Part shown: piece after piece, positions 3,001 to 6,000 of the stretch
How the letters are laid out: the number at the start of each line of letters is the position of its first letter
Position numbering within the stretch: the stretch's first letter is position 1
Assembly (NCBI GenBank): GCA_041649955.1
Contig: JBAZMD010000002.1
Coordinates: 7,709-71,708, forward strand
Direction of reading: 5' to 3'
DNA: 64,000 nt
DNA from: Patescibacteria group bacterium
GTDB taxonomy: Bacteria > Patescibacteriota > Patescibacteriia > UBA2591 > JAQUPP01
Made by a program: the position numbers

Positions 3001-6000
3001 ATAACTTTTTCAATATTAGCCGGTGTAAGTTTGGCGTCTGAAATCGCCTGCTCAATTGAAACACGGCAGCGATCAACGATCGGTTTGACCAATTCTTCCA
3101 ATTTTGCCCGAGTAATTTTCATTAATAAATGTTTTGGACCTTCATTGGTGGCAGTGATAAACGGCAAATTAATTTCCGTTTCCAAAGCCGAAGACAATTC
3201 AATTTTCGCTTTTTCAGCCGCTTCCTTAACTCTCTGAGTTACCATTTTGTCGGCTTTCAAATCCACACCTTGCTCTTTTTTAAATTCATCAATGATATAA
3301 TTTATCAAAGCTTCGTCCATATCAGTGCCGCCGAGTTTGGTGTCGCCGGAAGTGGAACGAACTTCAAAAACGCCTTGTCCGAAATTCATAATCGTCACAT
3401 CCAATGTTCCGCCGCCGAGATCGAAAACCAAAACTTGCTGATCTTTTTCCTGAACTTTATCCAAACCGTAAGCCAAACTGGCCGCGGTCGGTTCATTAAC
3501 CAAACGGACTATTTCAAGTCCGGCGATCGCTCCGGCATCTTTGGTTGCCTGTCTTTGCGCGTCATTAAAATAAGCCGGTACGGTAACTACCGCTTTTTCC
3601 ACTTTGTCGCCTAAATACATTTCCGCGTCTTTTTTTATTTTTTGCAAAATAAAAGCGGAGATTTGCTGAGGCGTGTATTCTTTGCCGAAAATATTATATT
3701 TAAAGTCAGTGCCCATTTTTCTTTTTGCGGCCAAAATCGTGCCTTCCGGATTTGCCACTGCTTGGCGGCGAGCCGGTTCACCGACCAAAAGTTCGCCTTC
3801 TTTGGTAAAAGCAACATATGACGGGAAAGCTTTTCCGCCAACTAAAGTTGTCCCTTCGGCTGAGGGAATTATTTTTGATTTGCCCGCTTCCATGTAAGAA
3901 GCAGCTGAGTTAGATGTTCCTAAGTCAATTCCTATAATTTTGCTCATAAATTTTACCTCATTTTATATTTAATAATTAATTAATTGATTAATCGGCGAGA
4001 AGTAATCGCCAAAAAAAGTGTCGCACAGTCCGAACGGGCATGGTCTCCGACGAATGTCGGAGGAGTGAGGACGAGCGCCAAACGGCAATTCGCACGCTGG
4101 GCGAATTGACCGTGTCTTTTTTTGGTGATTGCTTCGAGCCCTTTACTTGATAATAACTTTTGCCGGCCTAATAACCCGATCATGCATTGTATATCCGCTT
4201 TGAATTTCTTCAACAATTTCATTTTCTTCACCTTGTTTGTCAATTGCTTCATGAAACATGGGATCAAATTTTTCTCCCAAAGTTTTTATTTTTTCAATAC
4301 CTTGCGCTTTTAAAAAACTTTCAAATTGGTCTTTAATTTTTAAAATACCGTTTGTCCACTCGCTTCGTGGTGAGCTTGTCGAACCATTGTCTTCTATTTC
4401 CGGCAGGTTTTTTACCGAATGATCAAAGCTGTCCATAATCGGCAAAAAATTCAAAATTAATTCCAAATTGGCGAATTTTATCCATTCAATTTTTTCTTTA
4501 TCAATTTCTCTTTCGCGGTTAAGATAATCGGCTTTGGTTCTTTTCCAGCCGTTTAAATATTCTTCCGCTTGTTGTTTGGCTAATTCGAGCTCATCTTGTA
4601 ATTTTTTAATTTCTTCGTCAGACATAAATTTAAACTTTGTCCAATATTTCTTTGGCGTATTCTATTAAAGCTATATTTCTGTTGTAGTCCATTCTCATTG
4701 GCCCCAAAAGACCCAATACTACACCTCTTTTTTGATTTGGCGTATGATATTTGATTAAAATCGTTCCGCAAAAATCACCAAACGGATTGCTTTGCCCCAA
4801 AAAAACGCGGTGGTTGCTTTCTATCTCGTCAAAAATTTTGGCAACGGTTTGATCTAAATGATCTATAATTTGCGAAACATTATAAACCACGTCCATTTGA
4901 TTAAATTCCGGCTGGCTGAATAAAGAAGAAAGTCCGGTGTAATAAAAATTATTTTTATCAAAAGCCAAAATAACCAGTCCGTTGGTCAACTCCGCTATTT
5001 TCTCGCCGATTTTCTTGGCTGAAATTTCCAATGACTGATTTTCTTTTTTAACGCTGTTTAATTTTCTTTTTTCAATTTGACTGACTTCTTCTTGCTGTAA
5101 AAAATTTTCAATATAATAATGATAAGCCTTTTCAGTGGGAATGCGGCCGGCCGAAGTATGCGGCTGGATTAAAAATTTTTTTTTGGTTAATTCCGTCATC
5201 TCATTGCGAATAGTAGCCGAGCTTATTTTTGATTCAAATTTTTCCGCCAAATATTCAGACCCGATCGGCTCTGCGGTTTTGATATATTGAGAGATAATGG
5301 TTTTAAGCAATTGATTTTGCCTTTGGGTTAACATACAAAAATATTATAAAGAGTATTAAACCTTTTTTATCTGCGTTTGCTCGGAAAAGTAATCTACATT
5401 AGTGGATTACTTTTCCCTCGCTCACTTGATAATAAACTAAAAATTAGCACTCGTCAAGTCCGAGTGCTAATAATCTGTGGAAAACTTTTTTAAATACCGA
5501 CTATTTATTCGCTAAATCATTGGCGATTTGATAAATATCCCCCGCTCCCATAATAAGAACTACGTCGTTCGGCTGAATATTTTCTAAAATTAGTTTTTTT
5601 GTTTCTTTTAAATCTCGTCCATATAAAACTTTTTGCCCATTTTTTTGAACCGCTTTGACCAAATCTTTTGAACTTACATCTTGGTCTTTTTCTTCTTCTC
5701 GACCCGCCACATCATAAATTTCCGAAATAATCGTCAAATCAGCGCCTTTAAAACATTTGACAAATTCCTTAAATAATTTTTTGGTCCGATTGTGATGATG
5801 AGGCTGAAATACGGCCACGATTCTTTTTCCGGGATAAAATTCTCTGGCCGCCTGAATAGTGCCGGAAACCGCAGTCGGGTGATGAGCGTAATCACTGATA
5901 AATAACACAGACTGACACTGACTTAACACTGACTTACACTGACATTTTCTGTGTCCGTCTGTGTGCCGTCCGTGTAAGTCCGCGTTCATGATTTCAAATC

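What the first reader, a model, noticed from the sequence alone, without database searches (positions are those of the whole stretch)
3990..4140. GC-rich structured element between dnaK and grpE sharing a hairpin with the pgk insert
The grpE-dnaK spacer contains a ~150-nt segment much GC-richer than its surroundings, with several stable hairpins: GGCGA-GAAGTAA-TCGCC, CTCCGAC-GAAT-GTCGGAG and CAATTCG-CACGCTGGG-CGAATTG. The CTCCGAC/GTCGGAG stem is the same as in the in-frame pgk insert at 45064-45083. It could be a REP-like element, a processing or attenuation structure inside the heat-shock operon, or a small structured RNA. The antisense ORF called here (3980-4267) is probably an artefact of it.
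Basis: seen in the sequence. Interest (0 to 1): 0.5.

Follow-up and report, generated by a model that had tools for sequence, protein, structure and literature searches.

The report
Nested hairpin insertion between grpE and dnaK
A 147-base, very stably folding piece of non-coding DNA was inserted right after the grpE stop codon in the heat-shock operon of some ultra-small (Patescibacteria) bacteria but not their equally close relatives; it looks like one of many small hairpin insertions that come and go in these genomes, not a conserved regulatory RNA.

Summary
Window 3994-4140 lies between grpE and dnaK, both on the minus strand. Its core is 62% GC in a 35% GC genome, and it folds far better than shuffled sequence (z -4.9 and -6.4).

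It matches no Rfam family, has no coding signal, does not cover the dnaK ribosome-binding site, and is not a canonical terminator.

Among five about equally distant relatives, three carry it at 98-99% identity, although silent sites in the flanking genes differ by about 17%. One relative has a bare 31-nt spacer, the "empty site". Another has a different AT-rich palindrome at the same point.

The anatomy suggests a nested insertion: an 89-nt GC-rich module, flanked by a 5-bp direct repeat, sits in the loop of a simple A7/T7 hairpin.

The CTCCGAC/GTCGGAG stem recurs in three other polymorphic insertions: in-frame in pgk, in the gpmI-raiA spacer, and upstream of dnaK in a more distant relative.

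No second full-length copy was found in 379 kb.

Best reading: a recently spread, REP-, MITE- or Correia-like hairpin insertion that is co-transcribed with the operon and probably acts as an intercistronic mRNA structure. The function is inferred, not shown.

The parts
3994..4140 (-). The whole element, 147 nt. It starts 2 nt after the grpE stop codon, is co-directional with the operon, and has a Y-shaped fold.
   Evidence: Folds. Boundaries come from alignment with L034 (empty site) and L015.
3994..4018 (.). Outer arm 1, GGCGAGAAGTAATCGCCAAAAAAAG, containing A7 at 4011-4017.
   Evidence: (I4). It pairs with 4116-4140 with 4 mismatches in 25. Two of these are G-U on the plus strand and A-C on the minus strand.
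4116..4140 (.). Outer arm 2, CTTTTTTTGGTGATTGCTTCGAGCC, containing T7 at 4117-4123.
4018..4022 (.). Direct repeat GTGTC, copy 1, at the junction of the outer arm and the inner module.
   Evidence: Deleting the inner module plus one repeat copy leaves a perfect 20-bp hairpin.
4112..4116 (.). Direct repeat GTGTC, copy 2.
4023..4111 (.). Inner GC-rich module, 89 nt, holding hairpins A and B. With its two flanking GTGTC copies (4018-4116) it is 62% GC.
4023..4078 (-). Hairpin B. It has a basal GCGC/GUGC helix (G-U in the window and L014, G-C in L001), a GUCC/GGAC helix, and the apical CTCCGAC hairpin.
   Evidence: The substitution at 4025 is the only change in a stem.
4045..4062 (.). Core hairpin CTCCGAC-GAAT-GTCGGAG. 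The same stem occurs at 45064-45083, 39343-39362 (imperfect) and L036:3990-4008.
4082..4113 (-). Hairpin A, made of ACGG/CCGT plus CAATTCGC/GCGAATTG.
3994..4010 (.). Local hairpin GGCGA-GAAGTAA-TCGCC, an alternative to the outer helix.
   Evidence: Read from the sequence. It is not part of the minimum-energy fold.
3948..3993 (-). AT-rich 3' part of the spacer. It contains the dnaK Shine-Dalgarno GAGG (3959..3956), which stays unpaired.
   Evidence: for the fold. There are 0 of 45 differences from L001 and L014.
4143..4145 (-). grpE stop codon TAA. Homology to relatives that lack the element ends here.
45057..45112 (.). Related module: a 42-nt double GC hairpin (45064-45105) inserted in-frame in pgk. 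It carries the same CTCCGAC stem and is flanked by a perfect 7-bp direct repeat TTGAATT.
   Evidence: It is present in the window and L043 and absent from L044 and L045.
39149..39372 (-). Related case: the gpmI-raiA spacer holds a roughly 165-nt insertion right after the stop codon. It contains a CTCCGGAC/GTCAGAG hairpin (39343-39362) and a hairpin with 24-nt arms (39257-39330).
   Evidence: It is present in the window and L044 (158 of 159 identical) and absent from L043 and L045.

Best explanation
The element is a lineage-specific, non-coding, composite palindromic insertion, a miniature hairpin element. It is not a conserved part of the heat-shock operon.

Shown:
- It sits 2 nt after the grpE stop codon in three of five roughly equidistant Patescibacteria genomes.
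- One relative has only a 31-nt spacer (an empty site). Another has an unrelated AT-rich palindrome at the same point.
- Carriers are 98-99% identical across the element, while silent sites in the flanking genes are about 17% diverged.
- An 89-nt GC-rich module lies between two copies of a 5-bp direct repeat, inside what would otherwise be a perfect A7/T7 hairpin.
- The CTCCGAC/GTCGGAG hairpin recurs in three other insertion polymorphisms of this clade.

Inferred:
- It belongs to a class of small hairpin insertions that enter operon junctions just after stop codons, and enter genes in-frame.
- These insertions have spread recently between related genomes, either by an unknown mobilising activity or by short-tract gene conversion.
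- Because it lies inside the hrcA-grpE-dnaK transcription unit, it should fold in the mRNA as an autonomous Y-shaped module closed by a 20-23-bp helix.
- Its most likely effect is that of an intercistronic processing or stability element. It could be a substrate for a double-strand-specific RNase such as RNase III, or a barrier to exonucleases. Either would uncouple the fates of the grpE and dnaK messages.
- It leaves the dnaK ribosome-binding site free.
For: Presence and absence:
- L001 and L014 carry it.
- L015 has a different insert.
- L034 has a 31-nt spacer.
- More distant relatives have 50-nt spacers or an hsp20 gene at this junction.

Relatedness of the genomes: all five are equidistant at fourfold sites (0.156-0.216), so the carriers do not form a closer group.

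Conservation:
- The element shows 3 of 149 and 2 of 149 differences, against 16.8% and 18.0% at fourfold sites (Fisher P 2.5e-7 and 7e-9).
- There are 9 differences in the last 50 nt of grpE, then 3 in the next 239 nt.
- Ordinary intergenic spacers in the same genomes are 58-86% identical.
- L001 and L014 are identical over 338 nt around the element apart from one base, which points to recent exchange at this locus.

Anatomy: nested structure with GTGTC direct repeats.

Parallel cases with the same signature:
- The pgk double hairpin, with a 7-bp direct repeat.
- The gpmI-raiA insert, 99.4% identical between carriers against 92% in the flanks.
- The pgk-eno palindrome, with a nested GC hairpin in L044.

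The distribution of these inserts among genomes is incongruent.

Fold: autonomous, with the Shine-Dalgarno sequence unpaired. No Rfam family matches.
Against: - No second full-length copy was found in the 64-kb window. A covariance model found none in 379 kb of held Patescibacteria sequence. Viral contigs, phage records and plasmids also gave none. Multi-copy dispersal, the hallmark of REP and MITE families, is therefore not shown.
- The outer element has no clear target-site duplication.
- No transposase or other mobilising enzyme was identified.
- Near-identity with sharp boundaries at the coding ends is also what strong purifying selection on a functional RNA would produce.
- The CTCCGAC stem ranks only third of 41 same-composition stems in a fuzzy scan, so part of its recurrence may reflect compositional preference.
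- The RNA-level function is entirely inferred. There are no transcript data, and whether the genome encodes RNase III was not checked.
Confidence: 0.5

Rival explanations
1. The element is a selected cis-acting RNA of the heat-shock operon, such as a processing site, mRNA stabiliser or attenuator. On this view one lineage gained it and purifying selection has kept it. Its near-identity among carriers would reflect constraint, not youth.
For: - Conservation is about 10-fold stronger than at silent sites, with boundaries exactly at the grpE stop codon and the dnaK start region.
- The fold is very stable and autonomous.
- All three substitutions are compatible with the minus-strand fold. One is in a tetraloop, one in an internal loop, and one changes G-U to G-C.
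- The location is one where differential grpE and dnaK expression is known to be controlled post-transcriptionally in other bacteria (established knowledge, not tested here).
Against: - It is absent from two equally close relatives that have the same operon.
- Loops and the 45-nt AT-rich linker are as invariant as the stems. That fits youth better than structural constraint.
- The same signature appears in unrelated inserts, including an in-frame coding one.
- There are no compensatory changes.
Confidence: 0.25
2. The element is an independent small RNA gene transcribed from the plus strand, antisense to the operon, with a long 5'-3' terminal stem.
For: - The plus strand folds better, at -73.6 against -60 kcal/mol, because two outer-stem mismatches are G-U on that strand.
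- Hairpin A is followed by a T7 run on the plus strand.
- The element is GC-rich in the way the window's tRNA genes are.
Against: - No plus-strand promoter-like or terminator-like site was found by the scan.
- The T-run lies 8 nt from the hairpin and is itself paired with A7.
- One inner-stem position favours the minus strand.
- There is no Rfam match even at E up to 10.
- It is absent from close relatives.
Confidence: 0.07
3. The element is a neutral relic. It could be left over from a larger mobile element such as a homing-endonuclease cassette, or be a palindrome built by replication template switching. On this view it has neither function nor mobility of its own.
For: - This locus is an indel hot spot. 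L034 has a GIY-YIG ORF between hrcA and grpE. L036 and L038 have hsp20 inserted. L038 has a duplicated dnaK start around a GC-hairpin insert.
- Only a single copy was found in the sequence sampled.
Against: - A neutral relic should have diverged like other intergenic DNA, which is 58-86% identical. It should not remain 98-99% identical.
- The shared hairpin stem at four loci is hard to explain by local template switching.
Confidence: 0.1
4. The element is an intrinsic transcription terminator, possibly bidirectional, or an RNA thermometer for dnaK.
For: A7 and T7 tracts flank the GC-rich structure, and it lies upstream of a heat-shock gene.
Against: - The terminator scan finds no site in the element.
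- The T-run is separated from the nearest helix by 5-8 nt and is paired with the A-run.
- The dnaK Shine-Dalgarno sequence and start codon are unpaired in the fold of the full leader.
- CIRCE, the operon's real operator, sits upstream of hrcA at 5444-5470.
Confidence: 0.05

Closest known systems
Correia elements (CREE/NEMIS) of Neisseria
   Same: Both are 100-155 bp, non-coding and bounded by inverted repeats of about 25 bp. Both insert into intergenic regions, are co-transcribed, and fold into long hairpins in mRNA. Correia hairpins are reported RNase III substrates that alter mRNA stability (my knowledge of the literature, not tested here).
   Different: Correia elements occur in hundreds of copies with a TA target duplication. 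Here only one full-length copy was seen in 379 kb, and no target duplication of the outer element was found. The sequences are unrelated.
REP/BIME elements of Enterobacteria and Pseudomonas, including GTAG- and CGTC-tagged REPs (PMC3733652 title and abstract)
   Same: Both involve short GC-rich palindromes with a recurrent stem, placed just downstream of stop codons inside operons. REPs are proposed to act in mRNA stabilisation or termination.
   Different: REPs are 20-40 bp, high-copy, and associated with RAYT transposases. This element is a 147-nt composite, its copy number is unknown, and no RAYT was identified. The CTCCGAC hairpin module alone is REP-sized.
Rickettsia palindromic elements (RPE)
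   Same: Both are palindromic elements found in intergenic DNA and in-frame inside essential genes. In this window, pgk, murG, murC and grpE carry such in-frame inserts.
   Different: RPEs are defined multi-copy sequence families of about 100-150 bp. The inserts here are heterogeneous and share only short stems. The dnaK element itself is intergenic.
GC clusters and double-hairpin elements of fungal mitochondrial genomes
   Same: Both are GC-rich hairpin modules scattered in a very AT-rich genome. Both show nested insertion and presence/absence polymorphism between close strains (my knowledge, not tested here).
   Different: The host is different (organelle against bacterium), the sequences are unrelated, and mobility has not been demonstrated here.

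Membership tests
MITE (miniature inverted-repeat transposable element) | Terminal inverted repeats bounding a short non-coding element | tested here: met
   The arms 3994-4018 and 4116-4140 match at 21 of 25 positions.
MITE (miniature inverted-repeat transposable element) | Target-site duplication flanking the element | tested here: inconclusive
   No exact direct repeat lies at the outer ends. A 5-bp GTGTC repeat flanks only the inner module. The AT-rich flanks make weak matches uninformative.
MITE (miniature inverted-repeat transposable element) | Multiple dispersed copies in the genome | tested here: not met
   No second copy was found by blastn-short in 64 kb or by covariance model in 379 kb.
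MITE (miniature inverted-repeat transposable element) | A parent insertion sequence with matching ends, or a transposase acting in trans | not tested
   No transposase survey of the genome was possible.
REP / REPIN | A 20-40-bp imperfect palindrome with a conserved stem, in many copies, associated with a RAYT | tested here: inconclusive
   The CTCCGAC-N4-6-GTCGGAG stem occurs at four independent loci in 388 kb. It ranks only third of 41 control stems, and presence of a RAYT was not tested.
Any Rfam RNA family (riboswitch, ribozyme, 6S, SRP, thermometer and others) | Covariance-model match | tested here: not met
   There was no relevant hit at E up to 10 in 3800-4400. At gathering thresholds the window yields only three tRNAs.
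Intrinsic terminator | A GC-rich hairpin followed directly by a U-run | tested here: not met
   The consensus scan finds none within the element. The U7 run is 5-8 nt from the nearest helix and is paired with A7.
RNA thermometer (ROSE or fourU type) | Sequestration of the Shine-Dalgarno sequence or start codon in a meltable helix | tested here: not met
   GAGG and AUG are unpaired in the fold of 3925-4150.
CIRCE operator (HrcA binding site) | TTAGCACTC-N9-GAGTGCTAA | tested here: not met
   The perfect CIRCE lies at 5444-5470, upstream of hrcA, not in this element.
Conserved structured RNA (general criterion) | Compensatory base-pair changes across diverged homologues | tested here: inconclusive
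   Only three near-identical copies exist. None of 51 pairs shows a double change, and one shows G-U to G-C.

The most novel reading that the evidence does not exclude
Patescibacteria of this clade may host a previously undescribed system of mobile GC-rich hairpin modules, one type marked by the CUCCGAC stem.

On this reading the modules insert into the loops of existing hairpins just after stop codons, and in-frame into essential genes such as pgk, murG and grpE. They would spread laterally to the same sites in genomes that are about 17% diverged at silent sites, in a homing-like manner, using an unidentified trans-acting enzyme. The many small GIY-YIG nucleases in these genomes are candidates.

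The grpE-dnaK element would then be a nested composite of such modules. It would be a bacterial counterpart of Rickettsia RPEs or mitochondrial GC clusters in the most genome-reduced free-standing bacteria.
Probability: 0.25. Interest if true: 0.7.

Novelty: new variant of a known kind. Interest (0 to 1): 0.42.

Why it matters
If the reading is right, the streamlined genomes of Patescibacteria, about 1 Mb in size, are not static. Tight operon junctions, and even essential enzymes, are repeatedly invaded by small hairpin-forming insertions that are much younger than their host genes.

This has three consequences:
- Annotation. GC-rich hairpins create spurious ORFs and odd protein inserts.
- Gene flow. 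It bears on how exchange is inferred in uncultured lineages.
- Operon expression. A 20-bp helix dropped between grpE and dnaK should change how the two messages are processed.

The four literature searches run in the held library returned no paper describing such elements in this phylum.

For this single element the stakes are modest. It is dispensable, since relatives lack it, and its function is inferred.

Tried and rejected
- Rfam at gathering and at permissive thresholds: nothing. ARAGORN: nothing at the element.
- Six-frame translation of the element against 5.8 billion proteins: no hit at E up to 10. The 95-aa ORF has no Pfam family. Short ATG-initiated ORFs on both strands lose their start codon in L001 and L014, where CCATGCC becomes CCCTGCC.
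- Exact-pattern scans of viral contigs with hairpin A and hairpin B: no matches. blastn against phage records gave nothing. Against plasmids it gave only a chance 27-nt match.
No whole-collection DNA search for the element could therefore be made.
- Covariance model R1: it found only the three known copies.
- Covariation analysis: not informative, because the copies are 98-99% identical.
- Extended homology between the element and the other CTCCGAC-bearing inserts (L036, gpmI-raiA): none beyond the stem and AT-rich low-complexity tracts.
- 6S, SRP and tRNA-like readings: rejected on shape (a three-way junction, with no central bubble and no GNRA/AGCA motif) and on absence from relatives. These judgements are by inspection only.
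- GrpE relatives P0005 and P0006, which have 135-nt spacers, had no DNA on file. L046 and L047 were too short or had hsp20 after grpE.
- Four literature searches for such elements in Patescibacteria found nothing relevant.
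Full report
**1. Context and check of the observation**

The window is a 35% GC Patescibacteria (CPR) contig. Its GrpE and PGK are identical to proteins of an NCBI "Patescibacteria group bacterium" MAG on a 114-kb contig.

hrcA (5334..4630), grpE (4625..4143) and dnaK (3947..2088) lie head to tail on the minus strand. A perfect CIRCE operator, TTAGCACTC-N9-GAGTGCTAA, sits upstream of hrcA at 5444-5470.

The grpE-dnaK spacer is 195 nt. Positions 4018-4116 are 62% GC, while the remaining 3' spacer is 11% GC.

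The segment folds at -60 kcal/mol as the operon-sense strand (z -4.85) and at -73.6 kcal/mol as the plus strand (z -6.44). None of 200 shuffles reached either value.

This is a 25-nt imperfect terminal inverted repeat, GGCGAGAAGTAATCGCCAAAAAAAG against CTTTTTTTGGTGATTGCTTCGAGCC, at 3994-4018 and 4116-4140. It is among the longest inverted repeats in the window. It closes a three-way junction with two GC-rich hairpins.

The ORF 3980..4267 is on the same strand as the operon, not antisense. It has no family and no homologue. Four of six frames are open merely because the segment is GC-rich.

**2. What it is not**

- No Rfam family matches, even at E up to 10, and there is no tRNA or tmRNA.
- The consensus scan sees no terminator-like or plus-strand promoter-like site in the element. 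The T7 run is paired with the A7 run and does not follow a hairpin directly.
- When the full leader is folded, the element behaves as an autonomous module and the dnaK Shine-Dalgarno sequence and AUG stay unpaired. It is therefore not a thermometer of the SD-sequestering kind.

**3. Distribution in relatives**

Protein-guided searches recovered the orthologous locus from several relatives.

| Locus | GrpE identity | What follows the grpE stop codon |
|---|---|---|
| L001 | 90% | The element, with 3 substitutions |
| L014 | 86% | The element, with 2 substitutions |
| L015 | 76% | A different AT-rich palindrome of about 64 nt |
| L034 | 82% | Only a 31-nt spacer, TAA-ATTTAATAATTAATTTGTAAATAATAAATAT-ATG (an empty site); also a GIY-YIG ORF between hrcA and grpE |

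In L015 the flanking genes are 87-94% identical in nucleotides.

More distant relatives have a 50-nt spacer, or an hsp20 gene, at this junction. The element is therefore a lineage-specific insertion at an indel hot spot, not a conserved operon feature.

**4. Age or constraint**

At fourfold-degenerate sites of hrcA, grpE and dnaK, all five genomes are about equally distant (0.156-0.216). The three carriers are not a closer group.

Yet the element differs at only 3 of 149 and 2 of 149 positions, and the 45-nt AT-rich linker at 0 of 45. Fourfold sites differ by 16.8% and 18.0% (Fisher P 2.5e-7 and 7e-9).

The transition is abrupt. There are nine differences in the last 50 nt of grpE, then three in the next 239 nt. 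Ordinary intergenic spacers in the same genomes are only 58-86% identical.

L001 and L014 are identical over 338 nt spanning the element, apart from one base. This shows recent exchange at this locus.

The three substitutions fall in a tetraloop, in an internal loop, and at a G-U to G-C pair on the sense strand. They are compatible with the fold but far too few for covariation.

Either nearly every base is under purifying selection, loops and linker included, or the element is much younger than its host genes. I favour youth for three reasons:
- Loops and linker are as invariant as the stems.
- Equally close relatives do without the element.
- Unrelated inserts show the same signature (section 6).

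**5. Anatomy suggests nesting**

The outer arms are 42% GC. They end in A7 (4011-4017) and T7 (4117-4123).

Immediately inside them lies a 5-bp direct repeat, GTGTC, at 4018-4022 and 4112-4116. It flanks an 89-nt GC-rich module. The module holds hairpin B (4023-4078, with the apical CTCCGAC-GAAT-GTCGGAG at 4045-4062) and hairpin A (4082-4113).

Deleting the module and one repeat copy leaves a perfect 20-bp hairpin with a 3-nt loop. This is the pattern expected if a GC-rich module inserted, with a short duplication, into the loop of a pre-existing simple hairpin.

No target duplication of the outer element is evident.

**6. The shared hairpin and parallel cases**

The CTCCGAC/GTCGGAG stem occurs at four independent loci in 388 kb of held sequence.

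- *This element*, in three orthologous copies.
- *The in-frame pgk insert, 45064-45105.* This is a 42-nt double hairpin flanked by a perfect 7-bp direct repeat TTGAATT. It is present in the window and L043 and absent from L044 and L045. Only two differences, both in a loop, occur across 112 nt, while the flanks differ at about 8-10 per 100 nt.
- *The gpmI-raiA spacer, 39149-39372.* A roughly 165-nt insertion begins right after the stop codon. It contains CTCCGGAC-GTTAA-GTCAGAG plus a hairpin with 24-nt arms. It is present in the window and L044 at 158 of 159 identical positions and absent from L043 and L045. The coding flanks differ at 7 of 25 positions right up to the boundary.
- *L036:3990-4008*, between hsp20 and dnaK in a relative with 71% GrpE identity.

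Beyond the stem there is no extended similarity between these elements. In a fuzzy scan the stem ranks third of 41 same-composition stems, behind (A)TCCGCC-type stems. The link is real, but its statistical weight is moderate.

A further parallel is the pgk-eno junction. It is 11-18 nt in the window and L045, but in L043 and L044 it holds a 110-125-nt palindrome. The L044 copy has a GC-rich hairpin nested in its centre.

The presence and absence patterns of these inserts are mutually incongruent across genomes.

**7. Copy number**

No second full-length copy was found by any of these searches:
- blastn-short in the window.
- A covariance model over 379 kb.
- Viral contig scans.
- Phage and plasmid collections.

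Multi-copy dispersal, the defining feature of REP and MITE families, is thus not shown. I do not file the element as a member of any such family.

**8. Mechanism**

Shown:
- It is an insertion polymorphism.
- It has a nested palindromic anatomy.
- It is exceptionally similar among carriers.
- It shares a hairpin module with other insertions.
- It folds autonomously and leaves the SD free.

Inferred:
- The element is transcribed as part of the operon, because there is no terminator before or in it and all genes are co-directional.
- In the mRNA it forms a Y-shaped structure closed by a 20-23-bp helix. On the sense strand this helix has two A-C mismatches.
- By analogy with Correia elements, REPs and ERICs, such an intercistronic structure most likely serves as a cleavage site for a double-strand-specific RNase, as a barrier to exonucleases, or as both. 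This would uncouple the stability of grpE and dnaK mRNA.
- Carriers also have a GAGG Shine-Dalgarno sequence and an AGC second codon in dnaK. Non-carriers have no SD and a TCA second codon. The whole spacer seems to travel as one allele.

How it spreads is unknown. Candidates are a trans-acting nuclease or transposase, or short-tract gene conversion between related populations.

**9. Comparison and novelty**

Functionally and architecturally the closest known things are Correia/NEMIS elements, REP/BIME, Rickettsia RPEs and mitochondrial GC clusters. The element differs from all of them in sequence, in its apparently low copy number, and in lacking a known mobilising enzyme.

My four searches of the held literature returned no paper describing such elements in Patescibacteria.

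I rate it a new variant of a known kind. The single element is of moderate interest. The broader pattern is the more interesting lead: young hairpin insertions at operon junctions and in-frame in pgk, murG, murC and grpE.

Noticed in passing
window 45057-45112 (pgk, minus strand): A 42-nt double GC-rich hairpin is inserted in-frame in phosphoglycerate kinase and flanked by a perfect 7-bp direct repeat TTGAATT. It is present in the window and L043 and absent from the close relatives L044 and L045. L043 also has an extra AAATCCG tandem repeat beside it.
   Followed up: partly
window ~44100-44190 (pgk C-terminus): A second in-frame insert in PGK, TDKNTDLHGNRQRKSVLSQYGSAH, is encoded by a palindromic ACGGA.../...TCCGT-type sequence. 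It is shared only with L044 (P0091). Its distribution is incongruent with the first pgk insert.
   Followed up: partly
window 5900-5990 and 6456-6515 (murC): MurC carries in-frame palindromic inserts. One encodes NADLHGRHTDGHRKCQCKSVLSQCQSVLF and folds at -38.7 kcal/mol. They are of the same TDLHG/KSV type as the pgk C-terminal insert.
   Followed up: partly
window 10413-10468 (murG): Three consecutive small GC-rich hairpins (TCCGCC-GGCT-GGCGGA, CCAGCC-CAAG-GCTGG, TCAGCC-TCT-GGCTGA) form a 14-aa in-frame insert in MurG. The insert is absent from the 87%-identical MurG of L034.
   Followed up: yes
window 4360-4390 (grpE); L001:4240-4290; L034 grpE: A variable-length GC-rich in-frame repeat (GGTTCGACAAGCTCACCAC...) lies in the middle of GrpE. 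It is expanded in L001 and L034 and missing in L014 and L015, which explains GrpE lengths of 152-176 aa.
   Followed up: partly
window 39149-39372 (gpmI-raiA spacer): A roughly 165-nt structured insertion begins right after the gpmI stop codon. It is 158 of 159 identical to L044 and absent from L043 and L045. It contains an imperfect CTCCGGAC/GTCAGAG hairpin and a hairpin with 24-nt arms at 39257-39330.
   Followed up: yes
L043:11246-11380 and L044:11189-11304 (pgk-eno spacer): A 110-125-nt palindromic insert lies right after the pgk stop codon. The window and L045 have only 11-18 nt there. The L044 copy has a nested GC hairpin, CCCCAAGGGG-GTCC-CCCTTGGGG, in its centre.
   Followed up: partly
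L038:3530-3790: A roughly 62-nt direct repeat of the dnaK upstream region and first 14 codons ([13 protein letters not shown]) flanks a roughly 105-nt insert that contains a GC-rich hairpin. The upstream copy is a dead dnaK start.
   Followed up: no
L034:9687-9980; window 7000-7269: L034 has a small (97 aa) GIY-YIG nuclease ORF between hrcA and grpE that is absent from the window. L034 also has an 89-aa GIY-YIG ORF just upstream of murC, and the window has an 89-aa ORF (7000..7269) in the same position, which I did not scan against Pfam. These are possible free-standing homing-type nucleases.
   Followed up: no
window 5444-5470: A perfect consensus CIRCE operator, TTAGCACTC-GTCAAGTCC-GAGTGCTAA, lies upstream of hrcA. 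Its GCACTCG/CGAGTGC core stem is found at the equivalent position in L014, L015, L034, L038 and L041.
   Followed up: yes
L036:3480-3495, L038:2984-2992, L046:1140-1150, L047:~940: The motif TTAAAGGTCG recurs just downstream of grpE and upstream of hsp20 in relatives that carry hsp20. It may be a promoter or operator element.
   Followed up: no
window 16052-16072, 16145-16165, 19189-19258: The short motif CCCGCCTAAATTTT / AAAATTTAGGCGGG is repeated near the tRNA genes and forms inverted repeats. Its function is unknown.
   Followed up: no
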